In this document: in pieces, positions 12,010 to 36,000 of the stretch
How positions within the stretch are numbered: the first letter of the stretch is position 1
Layout of the letters: every line of letters starts with the position of its first letter
Source: Okamejei kenojei
Taxonomy: Eukaryota
NCBI GenBank assembly: GCA_035221665.1
Contig: CM069168.1
Coordinates: forward strand, 17,174,001-17,238,000
Direction: 5' to 3'
Length of the DNA stretch: 64,000 nucleotides
Translations under genes and position numbers: made by a program
The notes under the pieces: generated by a model
Told to the model about the DNA's origin: nothing
Seen by the model: the letters and a program-made list of their open reading frames with translations, nothing else
The model's database searches: none

Positions 12010-12046
12010 ATGTGGGGCAATCAATTTCAGTCCGCGTCCAAGTCAG
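12010..12046 (+). CDS. CCAR2: CCAR2 first coding exon (MWGNQFQSASKS); exon probably starts at 11930 including 5'UTR
   Basis: Acceptor tttctcag|11930, ATG at 12010, donor G|GTGTGT; phase 1 matches the next exon. Confidence 0.7.
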
Positions 12047-15000
12047 GTGTGTATTTGATCTGCTATTGTATTAACTTGCAATTTTCATCAGTCAATAAAC
12101 ATTCACAGTGTCCTCATCACCATTTGTTCCTCAGTTTCAGTTTTCCCCGTACCCCTAGTTCAGAAGGTCTAGCAGCAGAATAAGGCCATTTGGCCCATCG
12201 AGTCTTCTCTGCCATTCAATCACGGGTGATCTATCTCTCCCTCTTAACCCCATTCTCCTGCATCCGCCCCATAACCCCTGACACCCGTACTGATCAAGAA
12301 TCTGTTAATCTCCACCTTAAAGATATCTATCGACTTGGTTGGATGTGTTATTAAATTCCACAGATTCACCACCCTCTAACTAAGAAATTCCTCCCCATCT
12401 CCTTCCCAAAGGTACATCCTTTTATTCTGAGGCTGTGCCCTCTGGCCCTAGCCTCTCCCACCTGTGGAAACATCCTCTCCACATCCACACTATCCAGGCC
12501 GTTCACTATTCAAGAGTTCCCCCTTTCCCTTCTGTCACTTTGGCCCCAAGTCAACGTATCCTGTTCCTGATCATCCTCCGCAGCACACCCATTCCCATAA
12601 GGGATGTGTCATGTGTGTTTCCTGTTCCTCTTGCCAATGCATCACTCCAGCTGGCATGTAGTTGACAAGCTCTGAAGCCCAGTAATCTGCAGTAACTAGT
12701 GTTTCGTGGATACTGGTTACTCAGTTAGTGTCGGGTGTTGGAAAGATCAGTTTCTGAAAAGCAGCGAATATAATCAAAGGCTTGTTCCAACCCGCACATC
12801 CCTCCTTGTCCCCGTTCCTGTCGGGCAGAAGATACAGAAGCTTGAAAGCATGCATCACCAGACTCGGTAACAGTTTCTTCCCATCCATTATCAGGCTGCT
12901 GAACGGTCCTTCCATAAGTTAGGGTGCTGTCCGGTTCACCTCCACCCCCATTGTTCTCCCTGTGACCTCGTGCGTTTTTCCCGGGTGCTTCGTATTCCTT
13001 CCACTCTCCACAGATGTACATGTTTGTAGATTAATTGGCTTCGGTAAAAAATTGTAAATTGGCCCTAGTGTGTGGGATTGTGCCAGTGTGCGGGGCGATC
13101 GCTGGTCGGCGTGGACTGAAGGGCTTGTTTCTGTGCTGTATCTGCAGACTAAAAACTACCAATGAACCTTTGATAGACACAAAAAGTTGGAGTAACTCAG
13201 CGGGTCAGGCAGCATCTCTGGAGAAAAGGAATGGGTCTGAAGAAGGGTCTCGACCCGAAACGTCACCTGTCCCTTTTCTCCAGAGATCCTGCCTGACCCG
13301 CAGAGTTACTCCCGCTTTTTGTGTCTATCCTCAGTTTAAACCAGCATCTGCAGTTCCTTCCTACCAATGAACCTGTGTTCTTTCTCTAGGCTCGCATGGA
13401 GGCCAGCAACAGTCGCTGCTTGGACCTGGGCCACCATCCATGCAGCAGGCATTGCTACAGGTAACGTCGCGGGCTGTACTGATCCAGTGTGGGGCCTCAC
13501 CGAGATTGTGCTGGTGTCTGGGCAGATGTTTCGGGGGGGTGGGGAGGGGGGGTAAATGGGGGTGCTGATAATTATCCCTTGTGGTTGTCACTTGTGTTAT
13601 TGCTGGTGGCGGCAGTCATTAGGTTGGAATACCAGCAGGGGGTCTTTACGCTGGGACAATTGGCTTGGACCAGTAATGTTGTTGCAGATTCCAGGGGTGG
13701 GCATAATACTGGCGTAGGATGTTACTGGAGCTAGGTTACCAGTGCGGCTTTACTTATGGTGGGAGTATCATTGCTGACTGTCAGCTGGAGAAAAATCGGC
13801 GGTGAGAGAATAATATTGGTGGGCAGTAACTTGATCGGAATAATATTAGAGGGGTAATCTAAGTTTAAGATAGACATAATAATGTGGCTTGTCGATGGAT
13901 GGGGTGATGAGGATCAGTTCCTGACGGAGAGGCTGAAATGTTGCCGCTTGGCATGGATGTGTTCGTGAGGGCTGTCGCTTGGTGGGGAATAATGTCACCT
14001 GCGTTCTCGTGTGGCAGGCGGATTAATGTCGGAGGGTCATGATACAGGGTGGTAGACAAAAATGCTGGAGAAACTCAGCGGGTGAGGCAGCATCTGTGGA
14101 GTGAAGGAAAAAGGCGACCCGAAACGTCTCCTTTTTCCTTCGCTCCACAGATGCTGCCTCACCCGCTGAGTTTCTCCAGCATTTTTGTGTGCCTTCGATT
14201 TTTCCAGCATCTGCAGTTTCTTCTTAAACATGTCACAGGGTGGTGTCAGTGTGTGGGGGTTGTCACTTGATGTGGAGAGTCAATGTGGGGATCGGGCCAG
14301 TCACTTGTCTGGATATAATTTCGATTAATGAGAGGGAAACGGAGTTAGGGAATACTGAATGAGGGTGTCGACGGGGCCAATATGGAGCAGTGACATTGTG
14401 TGTTTTTGATGCTTTCTGATCTAATTCATATTAAATATTGTCGAGCCAGCTCAGGATTTCTGAAGCTTAACAAGCTAAATTGCAATCCTGCTGCATATCC
14501 CTGGTTTTCTAGCACCCAGCTGCTCACATCGGAGCCAGATGACCTGGAGTAGAGTACGCATTTTGCATTAAAACATGAGGCGTTCCACATTTCCACACTC
14601 TGCCCATGGTTTGCAAATCAGTGATGTGCCCTTTCACTCTCAGGCTTTGTACTGGTTCCCGGTGGAGACACAGTCTTCGCATTTCAGAAGCCCAATCTCA
14701 GCATCAGACTCCCGACCCTCACCCGTCCCACCAACTTGGATCTGGAACCAGGGCAGGCCTGAGAGTGAGTCCAGGTGGTGCTTTGGTTCACTCTGGACTT
14801 GAATATCATTCTCATGTATTTTAAAATTAACTTTTCTCTTCAATAATTCATGGGCCATCTGGCACCTGCTCTGATTGCTGTGACAATTGTTCTGTTCTCT
14901 AACCACCTCACTTGCTTTTCTCTTTCAGCCTTCACTGCTGTTGAGGGTACGCACACAAGGTGTTGCAGGTTGCTTGTTTTCTCAATAAATGCCTAAGATG

Positions 15001-18000
15001 CCTTGTGATTTCCCTCTTTATGGTGTAGTCTCAGTCGGGCCAGAGCAGCATTGAGGCCCTGCTGTCCGATAGTTTTTAATGTACAAAGTATTTGTCTTGG
15101 CAGCTACTTTTCAAGTTGCTGGTCGTTGCATCAAAGCAAAATCACTCGGCACTCGAGTTGCTGCGCCATTCCCTTTCTCACCTCTACCTGTCTCCTCCAC
15201 CTATGCATCGCACCCATCCCATCTCTGCTGAACTCCTGACCCATGCTTCCTTTAGTTGCATCCAAACCACAGTTCTGTTGGAAGCTCGTCTAAAGCTCCA
15301 TTTCTTGCATAAAGTCTGCAATCGTCATCGTCGTCCCCTCCCCCCCCGTTCTTCTCCCCCTCCACCCCAACCTCTCCTCTTTACCTCTTGCTGCCCACCT
15401 ACACTGGCTCGTGATCTGGTGGGAATGAGCGGTGCCTTTGTCTTTGTCACCCCCTTCCCCATCCCTACAGCTCGCTCTAATTCTTGTGTTCCTCAAATTC
15501 TGGCCTCGCCATACCCGCCATCCGTCGCTTTCCACCAGTATCTCCAGCCATGTAGAGCCCCGGAACTCTATTCCTAAACCTAACAAATGTCTCTTCATTT
15601 AAGAAAATTCTGCTCTAACATGTTATGCAGTTTGCAAATGTTGTCTGACAGCAACCTTTGAAGGTTCTTGGGACACGTTGCTACATTAAAGGTGCTGTGT
15701 TAAAGCAAGTTGCTGCTGTGGGGAACTTGCATTGTCATAGCACACCCCCGATGGACGGCCAGTGTTATTATTACAACAGAAGAGGTTTAAGACAGGAAAT
15801 GTGGCAAACCATTTAGACACAGAAGAATGCTGCAAGTGACAAATTAGCTGATTAAATGGTCAATCTGTATGATGGATGAGTGCTGGCCAGGACACCAGAC
15901 AGCAGATGGAGCCATAGTTTTATGTCAACTTGCGTGTGGAAGAGTGCAGTGTGAGCTGTTCATTTACCTGGGCAGGCAGGGCTGCAATTACACAGGTCTT
16001 GCTCACTACTTGGTCTTCATTGATCATTGCTCTTTATCAGCTGATGGTAACCTTTTGTTCTACACTTCTTGGCGTAAATAATTGACAGCATTATTAGGGT
16101 GGTACTTTGAAGGGTGCGGGTGCCACCCATTCATTATAAACCGGATGAGAAACAGGAATGATCAGATTTGATTGGGAGTTCCCTTGCAGTTAAATGCCAG
16201 TCTGACGCTTGGCTGGCAAGCTTGTGAGCATAGTGCTTCTGCCCTGAGAAGGTATGCTGCTGGAGATTTGTTGTCCCTTTGAATGATAATGACACTGGTT
16301 CTGTTGCTATTGGCAGGACCACCAGCAGTCAGGCCAATCGCAGAAGCAGCGAGTGTTTACAGGAGTGGTCACAAGTCTCCACGACTACTATGGGTTCATT
16401 GACGAGGAAGTGTTGTTCCATTTGAAGTAAGTGGTGCTTGAACCAGTAGAGAGTGTAGTATTGGAAGCTCCTCTTAATGGATCCCTTATCTCCCCTCCCT
16501 CCCCTCCCCCCACGCTGTTTTGGCCACTGAGCCATTCAGATCCCACTTGCTCCAAGCTCGATTACAAGATTGTGTAATGGCTGACATTTGTGTCCTGCTT
16601 AACGGGAGAGTTTTGCTGCGAGATCCTGTCACTGATCTCTGGAAGAGCTTTGGACAGTTCCCACAGTCACCAGCCTGTCAGAATGTGCTGTTCATGCAAA
16701 CATGGGCACTTTCAAGAACTGCCAAAAGCTGTTGGGCAGTGAGTGGTCCCTGCATCTTGTGACTTCACCCTCCATGCCCTTCCGGCTGTGGTCCTCAGTG
16801 TTAATGGGGCATTGTGTCCAGTGGGATAGTTAGTGCCTCATAACTTTGCCCTGAGCGATCAGTCGCCCATGCCCACTTTGGGATGCCCCTATCTTTGGGA
16901 GTATTGTATGTTGCGCTGACAGCAGTGGGTGGTATGTGCAAGAGTTGTGATCTGTGCGTGTGTTTGTATTGCAGTGTGGTGAAGGGTCGGATGCCCCAGG
17001 TTGGGGAGCGAGTACTGGTGAAGGCGGTGTACAACTCTAGTCACTCAGTGCAATGGAGCGCACTGAAAGTCCAAGTGCAGCCCACTCAGGTACAGGCTTT
17101 AGTGCAGTGCCCAGGAACCATGACAGGCAGCTTAGAATACCGCATTCATCTCTTGCAGTTCAGTTTGTATAAAGCCTCCAATGTCCCTTTTGTGAAGGGA
17201 ATTTATGAGATTTAGACACCTCACCGCTACTAACCCTTCATTTTTCTCCCCATCCCAAAACTTAGGCTCTGTTTCCTTCAGCTGCTCCTCTCGAATCCCC
17301 TTTCTTTTTCACTCACCTCTAGATTCTTGAATGCCTCAGAACCGCATCCCTGTCCCTCCAAACTCTTTGTCCTTTTCTAAACACCATGTGCCTTTTGGTT
17401 TGTGGCCCCTCAGTGCTGGGTGGCAATGGCTAGTTGTACTTGTTGCATAGTATGATGCTGAGACTGGAACTGAAAGTAGATAGAGTAGTCGGCTGGTCAG
17501 CACACACTCGCTCATTGCTTCCTCCCAGGAGCTCCCGTCAGCCGTGCAGTTCGTGTGATACGAGGTTCTGTTCCCATCGATGCTCGTGGCTGTGCAGGGA
17601 TCCGCTGGAACTGGCGATGGAGGTCTCGCGGCAACACCAGGCACTCTTCATTAATGGCTCCTTTGCTTTGCAGGTTTGATTTGAGCTGAGGTGGTGTAAC
17701 ACAAGGACAATATGCTCTTCTCTACCCTGCCACATCCCACTGGAACCCAAAGCACAACACCCCCCGTTCCCCACCCCCCACTCCACCCCACCCATCTAAA
17801 CCCAAACAAGGTTTAAACCAGGGGTGTCAAAATACCGTCCCGCAGAGGGGTCCAATCCGGCCTGTGGGATGATTTGGGAGGGGGGGGGGGGGTATATTCA
17901 CGGCCATTTATTATGTATCTATGGCAATTGCTCTCTCTCGCCGTTGTCTGTGTCGCCTGCTGCCCCGTCCACCTCTCCGTGAACAGCCCGCGGTTGCCAA

Positions 18001-21000
18001 GGGGATGATTGCCACCGGCAACCACTGTCAAACAGATAAGATGGCAGAGCTGAGCTCCCCCTGGCCTCGGGCTGGATGGCTGACTGACATTCGCGTGTGC
18101 ACAACTGATCCGGCCCGCGTGAAGTTGCAATTTGCCCAATCCAGCCCGTGACTTAAAATTAGTTTTGACACCCCTGCTTTAAACGCAATAAGCCTCTGCT
18201 TGTCCTGTGTCTCTCACCCAGTGTAAATGGCTGAGGTTCCAGATGGCATTTGCCCCCAATACGTTTCTGAGTTTTCCGGAATCGTTTTTCCCCAGCAGAA
18301 GCCTCCCTCATGTTGACTCCTTGTGTTGTAATCATTTCTCATTGCAGAACCCATCGCACATGATGTCTGGGCAGAAGCAAGGCATCCTTGGAGCCAAGCC
18401 CCAGCCACAGCCTCTGCTCCAAGCGCCACGCATTCCCTCCCTGCTCTCTTCACAGCCACTGCTTTCTCAGCTTCCCCACAAACGTGAGTATCAACACTCG
18501 AGCACAACAGAAAAGTGCCTCAAGTACTCACCACTTGACACTGACAATAATCTCATCAACATCATCTCTTACTCATTAGTCCCATGCGGCAAATTGATCT
18601 CCACTCAGCTTCACTCCATTGGTCACCTCCCCATTTCACAGTCAGACTTTTGAAGTTTTTGTTCCCCTTGAAGTTTGCACAACTGGGGGCACATTGGGGC
18701 AGCGGGTAATGCTGTTGCTGTGGAGTTTGCGAGTTCTCTCTCTGACCGCGTGGCCTACCTTCCAATGCTCCAGTTCCCTCCCGCATCCCAAAGGCGTTCA
18801 GGTTTGTAGGTGGTTCGGCCTCTAAATTACCCCTCCTGTGCAGGGAGTGGATATGAAAGTGGGATAACTAGAGTGAATGGGGATCAATGGTTGGCAGGAA
18901 CTCAGTGGGCTGAACGACCTGTATCCATGCTGTATCCCTAAACCAAACTAAGCTCTAAAGGCCTGCACCCCTGTTTCCATTCATGAGAGATGGGGTCCTG
19001 CATTGCCAGGCAACTAGTGCTGCTGGAGGGACTGGACTTCAGAGGGAGCTGCACTGTAGGGTTGGTAGAACTATGTGAATGGTGAGATTGCATTGGGACA
19101 CTGCATCGCTGGATTGGAGCTGCTGCAGGAGCCACTCACTCTGAATGGATATCTTTTGATTGCGATATCCATTTTTATCATTAAATCAGCTTCACTCAAC
19201 TGATTATCTGGTCTGTGTCACTTTACTTCTCGTAGCAACTCGCTGTGTACAGCTTGGCTACTATATTCCCTTCATAAAAATAATGCCCGCAGCTTGCTCC
19301 TTCATTGGCTTCAAATTGTTATGAGATTTGTTGTGATCGCAAACGTGTTATACCAATGCAAATCTCTCTTCCAATGTATAAGAACAGATAATGTTTAACA
19401 CACCACAACCAGCCTTGGGTTAGTCTGTTTACCTTTCATATGGGTGAAAAGTTCTAATTGCTCATGTTCTTTTTCCATATCCCCTTCTACATAATCTAAT
19501 CTTGAATATTGGTAGTTTCACCCGCTCATCCTTAGTGGATTTCATAACCTCGCAGGTGTCTGTTGTGTCTACACATAAATTATGTACATATATGATTAAT
19601 GTACACCAGTTTTATTGATGTATGTCGCAATTGAAAACTGCTTGCTTCAATCCTTTGCCATACTTTCGTCAGTTTTAGCATTTCTATTGTGATTGGTACC
19701 AATTTTTCAATGCTGCCTTGATTATTTCCTTGGGCCAGACAAAATAGTTGTCACTCTAAAGCTTTATTATACCTAAACCTGTCCCCCACTCGCCCTCCTC
19801 AGGGCTGATGGCTCCCGCCAGACATTTGTATTATATTCTACACAATGCTGTAAATGTTGTGTGGTCCATACTTGTGGCTTCCAGCATTGTGCCACTGATC
19901 AGATTTGGTCACAGATGAAGTGCCAGGAAATGGTGTTGGTAAATATAATTGTGGTCATAGTTGCACACTTTAGAGTTTAGTCAAGGCGTGAAAACAGCCT
20001 CTTTGGCTCACCTCGTCCATGCCGACCAGCGATCGTTAGCGCTATTCTGCGCGCTAGGGACAATTTACAGCTAACAGAAGCCAATGAAACTACAAACCTG
20101 CACGTCTTTGTAGTGTGGGAGCTAACTGGAGCACCCAGAGATGGCCCACGCAGTCACAGGGACAACATCGAAACTTTTCTTCTCGGGTCTATCATGCTGT
20201 AAGGCAACAACTCTACCTCTGTGCCGCCTGGGTTCATGACTCTCTATAAATCATGTACAGCAAAAGCAGAAAGTGATAGAAACTGTTAGCAGACCAGTCA
20301 GCACCTGCGGAAAGAGAAACAAATTCCTAAAATCTCCTGTGCTTTCTGAGCATTAAGCCTGTTCCCATGTTTCTAGCTGCTTTTAGCATTTGCATTGCGA
20401 ATGCCAAACTCTGCCTGTTGAACTTCAGTCTTTTCTCATCTTGGCAGTGTACTGATCACTTTTAGCCCATGCGCAAAGACTAGGGTGGCATGCTAATCCA
20501 GGTCATACTTTCCACCATTTCACCTCAACCACAGAGCCCACATAACGATGTTTGGTTCAAACTAAAGTTATGGAAGAAAATAAGAGTTAGACCATTTCTG
20601 CATTTCTCGTGTTTTCCATGAGTGGTCTCTGCCCTCGTGCGGTCTGCATTGTGAAAGATTGTGCTTTTTTAACGACTTCTCTCTTTTTACCTCTTCTCTG
20701 TTATCTCTGCCCAACCTGACTCCTCCTGCCCTCTGTGTCCCTCTTCCCCACTCTCAAATCCCCACCTGACTCACCCCCCTCTACTCCACCTGGCTCCCTT
20801 CCCTCCCAACCCCTGTACCCCACCCATGCACACTCTCCGTTCCCTGTTGTCTCCCCACCCCTCGCCTTCCAGCTGGTTTGCTGCAGCCCCTGGTTCACTT
20901 GGGTCCCCATGGCCAGCTCGGTCGCAGGATGGACATGGGAATGCGGTCAATGGGCAGGAATGGCCGCATGGACATGGGTCGCAGAGGTGACAGAAGGTAA

Positions 21001-33000: not shown

Positions 33001-36000
33001 GTTGAACAAGATTGCAAAAAAAACTACTGGAGCAACTCTGCTGGTTAAGCAGCATCTGTGGAGGAAACAGTTGACCTTTCATGTCAAGGCCCCTCCTCTG
33101 AACAGACTCCCTGGCTCCACGCACACACTCTCCATTGGAACCATAGCCCACTCTGACTCATTCATGTCTGGCCATCATTATACAGACTGTCTGAGGAATG
33201 AGGAAGGAGCAGAGGGTTGGGGTTTAGTCAGACAGCTGAAGCTCAGAACTGCACAGAATGCCAACTGTAAGACTCCACGATTCGCGGCTACTCAGTGGAA
33301 ACAACAGTAAGTCCAAAATGGATGAGTATCCCTGTTAAAACCAGGCCTGAGATAGAGCAGTGTGAGAAAGAACTGCAGATGCTGGATAAAATCAAAGGTA
33401 GACACTAGACCAAATGCTGGAGTAACTCAGCGGGCGAGACGCTAGAGTTTAGTTGGGGACGCTGTCTTCCCGCATATCCGTGCGTGCGCAGTTGGGGAAT
33501 TCCATCAAATTCTAGGTCATTTGGAATTCTATTTCAGGGGGAAAAAATTGTTGCGGTGTGGAAGCACTGGTGGAGTATGAGATTTACCGTGCTGTAAAAG
33601 GCAGTTAGCCCGGGTAAAATTGTTTAATCCTGCTCGATACAAAACCAAGCATATTAAGGCCATGGTGTGACGGGCTCCAATCTTTCCAGGTGGAAGATTT
33701 CCGCAGGGAGCTGAAAGCAAGGAATATGAACTGGAAAGGCACAAAGGCTCAGCTTGTGAGCCGACTGGAGAAGGAGCTGGAAGAGGAGACAGCTAAAGAA
33801 GAGATAGAGAAAGATGAATCTCCAACCAAGGAGGCAGAGTCGGTCGTGACTCCAGAGCCGAGTCCTGATGAGGAGCAGAAGCAGGTGAGACTTGGGCCAA
33901 TATACCCAACCATAGGCTGCAAATGGCACAAAACATGCGATTACTGAGGGAGCTGCAGCTGTCAAGTGGACGCGATGGGAAGGTGCAAGGCAGGGGATTC
34001 AACTCAAACCTGTGTGGATTATGGGAGACTGAGTTGAGGCACTGTCTTCCTAAGAGTTGAAACTGGGGATGTTTGGGTTTGTTTGAAGTTGGGTCAGATC
34101 AACCTGATTAAGATGGGATCCTGCCTTTATCGATGGAGACATGGAACAGAAAAACAGGATATTATGGTGAAGCTTTAAAAATTCCTGTTTGGACTCGGTA
34201 TCTAATGCAGAGAAGGCCTTGGGGGAGAGGGGGAGTGTTTCAGAGACAATGGCAAAATAGTCCAGAGATGAGACTAGTTTGCTCTGCCATTCAGTAACGG
34301 TGGCTGATCTGATGGGTAGCTCGTTTGCACATTCCTCCTGCCTCTCCTCAGTAACCTGAATCAGGCCTGTACCACTGGCTGCTGCTGTGCGGTGTTAAAC
34401 TGTTGTCTGTTGTGCTGTGCAGGATGCCGAGGGGAAGCAGCCTGAAGAAGCCCCTGCTGCACCCAAGGTGGAGCCTCGATGCCCCCTGCCAGCCGAGCCT
34501 GCGGTGATTGTGACCCCCAACGTCGCTGCCATGGGGGGCAACTTTGGATGTGCCGTGCTGTCGCTGAGTAACCTGAGGAGCTACCGCATTGATTCCAAGG
34601 GCCACTCCTTTGAGGTACTTGTTGGCAGATTGTCATCTTGCCTGCAACGTAACAGCTTTACAAATGTTATTTCCATGCCTTATGATGATGTTAGCGCCTA
34701 TATTGATCAGGTACTTAGAGAAGCAGCGTTGAAACAGGCCCACCCAGAACACACCAACCATCGTCTTCTGTGTTATCCCATTTCCTCAACCGGTCCTTAC
34801 GCACTAGAGCTACTGTACAATAGCTAATAATACACCAGGACACATTAACACACTAGTATAACATGTACAATAGGTCATAATACACACTAACATACTAGTA
34901 GAACCAGTACTTGCACACTTCTGTGGTTTCCCCGTTTCTCAATAGACAATAGGTGCAGGAGTAGGCCATTCGGCCCTTCGAACTATTCAATGTGATCATG
35001 GCTGATCATCCCCAATCAGTACCCCGTTCCTGCCTTCTCCCCATATCCCCTGACTACGCTATTTTTAAGAGCCCTATCTAGCTCTCTGTTGAAAGCATCC
35101 AGAGAACCGGCCTCCACCGCCCTCTGAGGCAGAGAATTTCACAGACTCACCACTCTCTGTGAGAAAAAGTGTTTCCTCCTCTCCGTTCTAAATGGCTTAC
35201 TCCTTATTCTTAAACTATGGCCCCTGGTTCTGGACTCCCCCAACATCGGGAACATGTTTCCTGCCTCTAGCATGTCCCAACCCTTAACAATCTTGTATGT
35301 TTCAATGAAATACTCTCGCATCCTTCTAAACTCCAGAGTGTACAAGCCCAGCCGCTCCATTCTCTCAGCATTACACACTAGATTGTACAATAGGTAATAA
35401 TGTACTAGTAGCCACTAATACACAGTAACATACTAGTAGAACCAGTCTTTGCGCACTAGTACGATAGGCAATTGTGCGCTGGCCACTTAAGCTAGAAAGC
35501 CGCATGTGTGTGGGATGTGGGAGAGACCCGGTGGCGGTGGGTGGTGTGAGTTAGTTTGGTGACGGGGTTCTGGTTTCCCCTCAGGTCCTGTGGCTGGCTG
35601 AGATTTTCAGTGAGATGCTGCAGAGAGACTTTGGTTACGCTATCTACAGTGCCCTGCTGGCCTACCCAGAGAAGAAACCAGAGGAGGTCCCAGAGAAGCC
35701 AAAGGCAGCCACTGGCAGTCAGGAGCAGGAGCAGGAACAAAAGGATCAGGACATGGAGCAAGAGGAGAAGCCGAAAGAAGCGAAGGGCGAGGGGGAGGAG
35801 ATGGAGAACGCGGAGTTGAAGGACACAGAGGAGGCGAAGGAGTCGAGCGATGCCCTGGCTAAAACCACAGCCATGGAGGAGGATGACAACTGGGAATGGG
35901 AGCTTACAAAGGTATGTCCCGTGGGGAAGGGGGAACCAGATGCTGGAGTGACTCTGGGGCAGGCAGCATCTCTGGAGAAAGGGAATAGGCGAGGTTTTGG

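What the first reader, a model, noticed from the sequence alone, without database searches (positions are those of the whole stretch)
13156..13390. Intact hammerhead ribozyme core capping a ~65-bp hairpin, sense-oriented, just upstream of a CCAR2 acceptor
Seen: CUGAAGA-A-GGGUCUCGACCC-GAAAC-GUC at 13237-13264. The inverted arm 13172-13236 pairs with 13265-13329 right up to the core, forming a very long stem I. A 14-bp TSD duplicates the branch-point region, and the exon starts about 125 nt after the predicted cut. Knowledge: Penelope-like elements carry minimal type I hammerheads whose helix III is a short palindrome (here ACGU) thought to need dimerisation. Inference: the inversion has built a better-formed ribozyme than the parent element has, positioned to cut CCAR2 pre-mRNA or affect 3' splice-site use.
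Basis: partly seen in the sequence, partly recalled or inferred. Interest (0 to 1): 0.7.

Follow-up and report, generated by a model that had tools for sequence, protein, structure and literature searches.

The report
Head-to-head Penelope stub in CCAR2 intron
This hairpin is an ordinary leftover of a very abundant jumping gene (a Penelope-like element) in an intron of a CCAR2-like gene, and its ribozyme motif is predicted to be an idle passenger that the long stem locks rather than activates.

Summary
The description is accurate: an intact minimal hammerhead core (13237-13264) closes a 65-bp, 89% complementary stem, is flanked by a 10-14-bp duplication, and lies 125 nt before an acceptor that RNA-like contigs of relatives use. 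It is the known head-to-head inverted-pLTR insertion of an endonuclease-bearing Penelope-like element. The exact core occurs 48,215 times in this genome, 71 of 360 sampled family loci are such hairpins, and 69 junctions have this same in-register join. The register follows a 2-nt GT match that is the parent's own helix I: in a subfamily without that match, joins move to other matches and show no peak at the cut site. Stem I is longer than the parent's (2 bp), but helix III still has no room to close. The dimer needs helix I between two molecules, so the long stem is predicted to block it. The arms and sister copies decay without compensation. No effect on splicing was seen, though none was tested directly. 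Earlier AI notes of this scan describe the same family many times. Verdict: real, ordinary, likely inactive.

The parts
13156..13169 (+). 5' copy of the target-site duplication (14 nt identical; 10-14 bp true duplication), followed by a 2-nt filler at 13170-13171
   Evidence: tail overlap of the first 4 nt
13172..13236 (-). inverted, tail-less pLTR arm, positions +64 to +1 relative to the cut site; its last 2 nt (GT) can equally belong to the sense copy
13235..13264 (+). start of the sense copy (GT, position -30) and the minimal type I hammerhead core 13237-13264: CUGAAGA, bulged A, 4-bp helix II, GAAA, ACGU palindrome, predicted cut after C13264
   Evidence: 48,215 exact copies
13265..13329 (+). 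sense pLTR arm, 3' strand of the 65-bp stem; carries private changes against the family majority (13269, 13271, 13288, 13313)
13330..13364 (+). Penelope 'tail' (about 30-35 nt), present on this arm only
   Evidence: outer ends +64 and about +100; PMC8557442 and PMC11167929 for the tail
13361..13374 (+). 3' copy of the duplication, -29..-16 from the acceptor; likely branch-point window (inferred from position)
13375..13389 (+). host polypyrimidine tract and AG acceptor of the intron 12047-13389
13390..13460 (+). 71-nt coding exon of the CCAR-family gene (likely CCAR2)
14051..14228 (.). second head-to-head stub of the same family in the next intron, 5' half of the core missing; nearest possible dimer partner

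Best explanation
This is a single old head-to-head insertion of two Penelope-like terminal-repeat ends, likely joined through a 2-nt match during integration, and its hammerhead motif is predicted to stay uncut and to be a likely neutral passenger in the intron. Shown: the anatomy (duplication, tail-less inverted arm, core, sense arm, tail, duplication), the family's abundance, the link of the core to an RT/GIY-YIG reading frame in longer copies, and use of the host acceptor in relatives. Inferred: two cDNAs, begun at the two internal start sites (+64 and about +98) on the two nicked target strands, were joined where the end of the longer one (at -30, just ahead of the core) matched GT at +2/+1 of the shorter one. 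That GT/AC match is the parent's own 2-bp helix I, so such a join restores the helix I register by itself. In RNA the stem folds on itself, helix III (A15.1-U16.1 around only C and G) cannot close in a monomer, and the dimer would need both 65-bp stems unzipped and swapped. The likely fate of the RNA is splicing and turnover as intronic double-stranded RNA.
For: Abundance: 48,215 exact cores; 360 loci in 864 kb, 71 of them hairpins, mostly with one tailed and one tail-less arm as here. Same join: 69 exact in-register junctions (two pairs are tandem neighbours) among 933 in the 15-gap class. Microhomology: another GT match 5 nt further in gives 32, a join 1 nt shorter with only a G match 19. 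In the subfamily whose cut site reads GC, the first 100 of 256 listed joins show 13 and 6 at two AG matches, 0 direct in-register joins at +1, 2 in-register by a G match, and 2-3 arms ending at +1 (counted by eye). PLE origin: longer copies continue upstream into an RT-like frame and a GIY-YIG match (E 4.6e-4). Decay: 7 arm mismatches, none compensatory, 3 within the first 7 bp of stem I; of 30 in-register sister loci, 4 keep the exact core and 14 the catalytic set. Energetics; the arm pairs with its own partner (60.5 expected pairs) and not with the neighbouring stub (0.0). Literature: no monomer cleavage and low dimer cleavage for a schistosome min-HHR (PMC4209133); no cleavage without protein and no RNA-seq ends at the cut for the anole element (PMC11167929); inverted pLTR + tail + TSD described (PMC3846280, PMC8557442).
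Against: The in-register join is the commonest single join in its class, about twice the GT control before correcting for the control's longer pattern. The element's tail is present at the orthologous site in 3 related DNA runs about 6% diverged, so the insert has been retained; its core there could not be read. The anole ribozyme cleaves with protein help (PMC11167929), and folding energies do not model proteins, loop-loop kissing or kinetics. No RNA from this species and no raw reads were available.
Confidence: 0.88

Rival explanations
1. One reading: the inversion supplies a full helix I and the motif cuts the CCAR2 pre-mRNA after 13264 (with protein help or a partner RNA), lowering or redirecting splicing at 13390.
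For: All conserved core positions are present and helix I and II are predicted in the right register; native copies have only 2 bp of helix I; the insert is sense-oriented and old enough to be shared with relatives; a PLE ribozyme can be protein-assisted (PMC11167929).
Against: Helix III cannot close in a monomer; the dimer needs intermolecular helix I and lies about 12 kcal/mol above the best (inactive) dimer; private changes have hit the core-proximal stem; in-register sisters decay; the acceptor is used in 4 of 4 RNA-like runs laid.
Confidence: 0.04
2. The hairpin acts as double-stranded RNA (editing or dsRNA-binding substrate) that modestly tunes the nearby acceptor, independent of catalysis.
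For: A 65-bp, 89% complementary stem lies 60 nt upstream of the AG; long intronic stems being editing substrates is general knowledge (recalled).
Against: The stem does not include the duplicated 14-mer, pyrimidine tract or AG; hairpins of this kind occur about once per 12 kb in the sample (71 in 864 kb), so proximity to some acceptor is expected. No data on editing.
Confidence: 0.08
3. The inverted arm stops at +1 because it was copied from a ribozyme-cleaved RNA, so the junction is a fossil of cleavage in vivo.
For: The arm ends exactly at the cut site; 69 in-register joins against 32 and 19 in two controls.
Against: The end is ambiguous by the 2-nt GT match; in the subfamily without that match there is no peak at +1; single copies show no peak at +1 (6 of 289 start at +1..+4, against 85 of 289 at -28..-33).
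Confidence: 0.1

Closest known systems
Inverted-pLTR insertions of endonuclease-bearing Penelope-like elements (PMC3846280, PMC8557442; passages read)
   Same: Head-to-head inverted 5'-truncated copy, 30-40-bp tail on one end only, short target duplication, microhomology at junctions.
   Different: Here the unit is reduced to the two ends with no reading frame, and the join falls in helix I register; I found no paper describing that register.
Minimal type I hammerheads of metazoan PLEs (Cervera and de la Pena 2014, PMC4209133; main text parts 1-2 of 4 read)
   Same: Conserved core, unpaired nucleotide between 9 and 10.1, G10.1-C11.1 pair, palindromic 15.2-16.2 with no loop 3; pairs of motifs on opposite strands were also noted there.
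   Different: Helix I is a 65-bp artefact of the inversion instead of 4-5 bp; helix II is 4 bp; no tandem partner.
Anolis Poseidon element PAc (Frangieh et al. 2024, PMC11167929; parts 1-2 of 4 read)
   Same: Two internal RT start sites that define the tail, both target strands extended, unprocessed RNA as template; matches the +64 / about +98 outer ends here.
   Different: That is an autonomous element tested in vitro; this is a dead stub. A Cys-rich linker before the GIY-YIG domain in the related subfamily points to Neptune rather than Poseidon (by eye, not tested by tree).
Conserved intronic hammerheads of amniotes (HH9/HH10, e.g. in RECK; recalled, search listing only)
   Same: Type I hammerhead in sense orientation in a host intron.
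   Different: Those are single-copy, conserved and have a closed helix III (recalled); this is one of tens of thousands of decaying copies with no closable helix III.

Membership tests
EN+ Penelope-like element terminal fragment | Core lies downstream of an RT + GIY-YIG reading frame in longer copies | tested here: met
   GIY-YIG E 4.6e-4 (20.9 bits, under the 22.6 cut-off); RT motifs seen by eye only, no Pfam or PDB hit. Shown for a sister subfamily; a copy with this locus's 3' type shares 542 nt upstream at 70%.
EN+ Penelope-like element terminal fragment | Optional 30-40-nt tail on one end | tested here: met
   Outer ends +64 and about +100 here; two clusters of 3' ends in 431 segments.
EN+ Penelope-like element terminal fragment | Adjacent inverted 5'-truncated copy, head to head, with target duplication | tested here: met
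EN+ Penelope-like element terminal fragment | Clade placement by RT phylogeny | not tested
   No tree built.
Minimal type I hammerhead (PLE type) | Conserved core C3 U4 G5 A6 N7 G8 A9 / G12 A13 A14 A15.1, U16.1, H17 | tested here: met
Minimal type I hammerhead (PLE type) | Bulge after A9, G10.1-C11.1, palindromic 15.2-16.2 | tested here: met
   against the features listed in PMC4209133.
Monomer-active (canonical) hammerhead | Closable helix III | tested here: not met
   Only C and G lie between A15.1 and U16.1; unpaired in the fold. No Rfam hammerhead match at gathering score or at E up to 10.
Dimer-active hammerhead | A partner motif able to exchange helix I strands | tested here: not met
   Own stem outcompetes the neighbour; swapped dimer is not favoured. 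Kissing and proteins not modelled.
Dimer-active hammerhead | Site-specific self-cleavage | not testable with these tools
   Needs a cleavage assay or raw RNA-end data.
Non-LTR retrozyme | Head-to-tail tandem units each with a hammerhead | tested here: not met
   Single head-to-head unit; criterion from bioRxiv 10.64898/2026.07.22.740005 (passages).
CCAR2 (host gene) | S1-like, DBC1, LAIKA domains; closer to CCAR2 than to CCAR1 | tested here: inconclusive
   Domains met; CCAR2 structure hit; the C15 paralogue was called CCAR1 from recall only.

The most novel reading that the evidence does not exclude
Because the parent's 2-bp helix I is itself the microhomology, head-to-head Penelope joins keep producing closed hammerheads with long, in-register stems (at least 69 here). 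With a protein chaperone, or by strand exchange with abundant Penelope transcripts, the copy in this intron cuts the CCAR2 pre-mRNA just ahead of the branch region and tunes its splicing: a host ribozyme born from a transposition by-product.
Probability: 0.04. Interest if true: 0.65.

Novelty: new member of a known kind. Interest (0 to 1): 0.13.

Why it matters
As a single locus it matters little. Two family-level points may help work on Penelope integration: joins of the inverted arm track 1-2-nt matches to the sense copy's first bases, not the ribozyme cut site, and about half of young copies with an intact core begin within 9 nt of it, which fits copying of uncut RNA to a fixed 5' end. If the insert did cleave, it would show a route from transposon debris to intronic host ribozymes.

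Tried and rejected
Rfam: no match at gathering score in the window; at E up to 10 only generic hairpin (microRNA-like) matches below threshold, rejected. PDB search with the RT-like frame gave nothing useful. Sequencing runs: no holder on record as RNA was listed; the runs used are guessed RNA from relatives and contigs only, so ends at the cut site, editing and expression levels could not be read. Contigs spanning the junction in relatives differ by 11-15% and are likely paralogous hairpins, so conservation of the core at the orthologous site is open. Only the 15 best of about 505 joints were shown, so cryptic use of the AG at 13174-13175 behind the duplicated 14-mer is neither seen nor excluded. 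Strand bias of intact cores in this gene: 2 sense against 3 antisense segments reaching the core's 5' edge, too few. The per-position decay spectrum mixes subfamilies and truncations, so it is only suggestive. Cleavage-derived arm end: weakened. Lunse et al. 2017 is not held; it is known here only through review passages (PMC6765202). Supplements of the papers were not opened; those of PMC4209133 may list cartilaginous-fish motifs. A look-up of earlier findings by sequence gave nothing.

Full report
1. Observation. The sequence shows the core at 13237-13264, between arms 13172-13236 and 13265-13329 that are 65 nt long and 89% complementary. The fold is far beyond chance (z -13.3, 0 of 200 shuffles). 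Stem I is predicted to reach the core and helix II has 4 bp; the ACGU segment stays unpaired. The 14-mer at 13156-13169 recurs at 13361-13374, 29 to 16 nt before the end of the AG, and the exon starts 125 nt after the predicted cut. The first four bases of the 14-mer also continue the family tail, so the duplication is 10-14 bp. Rfam finds no hammerhead.

2. Host gene. Exon translations match S1-like, DBC1, LAIKA and, weakly, SAP (4 families among 9 stretches given), and the S1-like stretch matches CCAR2 (8ez6). The genome has one other match, on C15 at 70%, which I take to be CCAR1 from recall. Contigs of 4 of 4 RNA-like runs laid (3 studies, related species, RNA status guessed) join 12046 to 13390 with GT..AG ends, so the insert lies in a 1343-nt intron and the acceptor works in relatives. 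In 3 of 3 DNA-like runs of other relatives a contig starts at 13339-13342, inside the element's tail, and runs through the exon at about 6% difference. The tail, and so likely the insert, is older than that split. Whether the species of the RNA runs carry it was not shown; they are closer (about 2% in intron contigs), so it is likely. That the animal is a skate or ray rests on recall and on earlier AI notes, not on a test.

3. What it is. The exact 28-nt core occurs 48,215 times in the 2.76-Gb genome. In 864 kb (80 stretches of 10 kb, 14 of them next to the window, plus the window) there are 431 segments forming 360 loci, 71 of them head-to-head hairpins, typically with one arm ending near +60-68 and the other near +95-100, as here (+64 and about +100). 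Longer copies run upstream into an RT-like frame followed by a GIY-YIG match (E 4.6e-4, below the curated cut-off; no Pfam or PDB hit for the RT part). Inverted 5'-truncated copy, one-sided tail and target duplication are the described insertion pattern of endonuclease-bearing Penelope-like elements (PMC3846280 and PMC8557442, passages), and the tail corresponds to two internal RT start sites (PMC11167929, parts 1-2).

4. Is the register special? The arm ends at the cut site and the sense copy starts at -30, sharing GT. In the class of joins with 0-14 nt between arm motif and core there are 933 matches; 69 have exactly this register, two pairs being tandem neighbours. A second GT match 5 nt further in has 32 with a pattern 5 places longer; a join 1 nt shorter has 19. 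In the subfamily whose cut site is followed by GC, 100 of 256 joins were listed: 13 and 6 fall on two AG matches, 3 on the inner GT match, 0 are direct joins at +1, 2 are in register through a G match and 2-3 arms end at +1 (by eye). Single copies show no peak at the cut (6 of 289 start at +1..+4) but a strong one just ahead of the core (85 of 289 at -28..-33, partly dependent on which upstream references I used). Among 60 exact-core matches labelled as the young subfamily, 33 start within 9 nt of the core, 1 at 10-99 nt and 26 at 100 nt or more, and all 15 hairpins start within 7 nt; about 5 of the 33 are mislabelled or duplicate (93 matches in all). So joins follow short matches to the first bases of the sense copy. 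Native copies have 2 contiguous helix I pairs (3 of 3), and those two bases are the GT match, so the register arises as a by-product (inference).

5. Would it cut? The limiting part is helix III: A15.1 and U16.1 enclose two bases. A schistosome motif of this type showed no cleavage as a monomer and low cleavage as a dimer (PMC4209133, parts 1-2); the anole motif cleaved only with protein, and no RNA-seq reads ended at its cut (PMC11167929); a review states the dimer requirement (PMC6765202, passages). In a double hammerhead the strand from 2.1 to 15.1 comes from one molecule and 16.1 to 1.1 from the other, so helix I is intermolecular (follows from the topology). Computed energies: monomer -112.5, two monomers -225.0, strand-swapped active dimer -223.3, best dimer -235.1 with helix II paired across molecules and no core. 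Reaching the active form needs two 65-bp stems opened. The nearest partner (14051-14228) lacks CUGAAGA and each hairpin keeps to itself (60.5 against 0.0 expected pairs). These models ignore proteins, kissing loops and kinetics.

6. Selection. The arms differ at 7 of 65 positions with no compensatory change, three of them within 7 bp of the core, mostly private changes against the family majority. Of 30 in-register loci fetched (30 of 69; 5' half of the core fixed by the pattern), 4 keep the exact core and 14 the catalytic set; G12 is changed in 7. In the unbiased sample 10 of 160 cores are exact and CpG positions, G12 included, change most (subfamilies mixed). Against my reading: the core here is still perfect and the insert is shared with relatives.

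7. Splicing. The stem ends 32 nt before the duplicated 14-mer and 60 nt before the AG; the downstream copy of the duplication preserves the host sequence. The acceptor is used in relatives. A subtle effect is untested.

8. Comparison and verdict. Works like, and by the tested features is, a solo inverted-pLTR stub of a Penelope-like element with a minimal type I hammerhead; it fails the tests for a monomer-active hammerhead and for a tandem retrozyme. Searches found no paper on the helix I register of such joins or on this fish family; supplements were not opened and Lunse et al. 2017 was not held. Earlier AI notes of this scan describe the same family and the 5' hot spot in this and other genomes; I reached both points before that look-up and count the notes as no support. 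Interest 0.13; chance of real cleavage with an effect on the host about 0.04.

Noticed in passing
window 13460-18348: RNA-like contigs of relatives show two routes: 13460 to 18348 directly, and through exons 16317-16426 and 16975-17089 that encode the S1-like domain. The skipping joint has the higher contig depth (704 against 278 in X1) and is the only one in X5; depth of contigs is a poor measure.
   Followed up: no
window 33618-33944: This CCAR2-like gene has a weak SAP domain match (E 1.5e-4, under the cut-off); by recall SAP is a CCAR1 feature in mammals, so it may be an ancestral state.
   Followed up: no
L008-L037, L178-L237 and the 864-kb sample: About half of young intact-core copies start within 9 nt of the core, at a CAGT/AGT that looks like either an initiator or a 3' splice site after a pyrimidine tract; may mark the element's RNA 5' end.
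   Followed up: partly
window 14051-14228: Second head-to-head stub, 94% complementary over 68 nt, with the 5' half of the core missing; with the first stub it brackets the 71-nt exon, but cross-pairing is not predicted.
   Followed up: yes
L184 (G000:C1:2018411-2018521): Three exact cores within 110 nt, two in tandem on one strand and one opposite; the tandem pair is a better candidate for dimer cleavage than this locus.
   Followed up: no
window 13156-13175: The upstream copy of the duplicated 14-mer is followed by a short pyrimidine run and an AG at 13174-13175, a possible weak cryptic acceptor; no joint to it among the 15 shown.
   Followed up: partly
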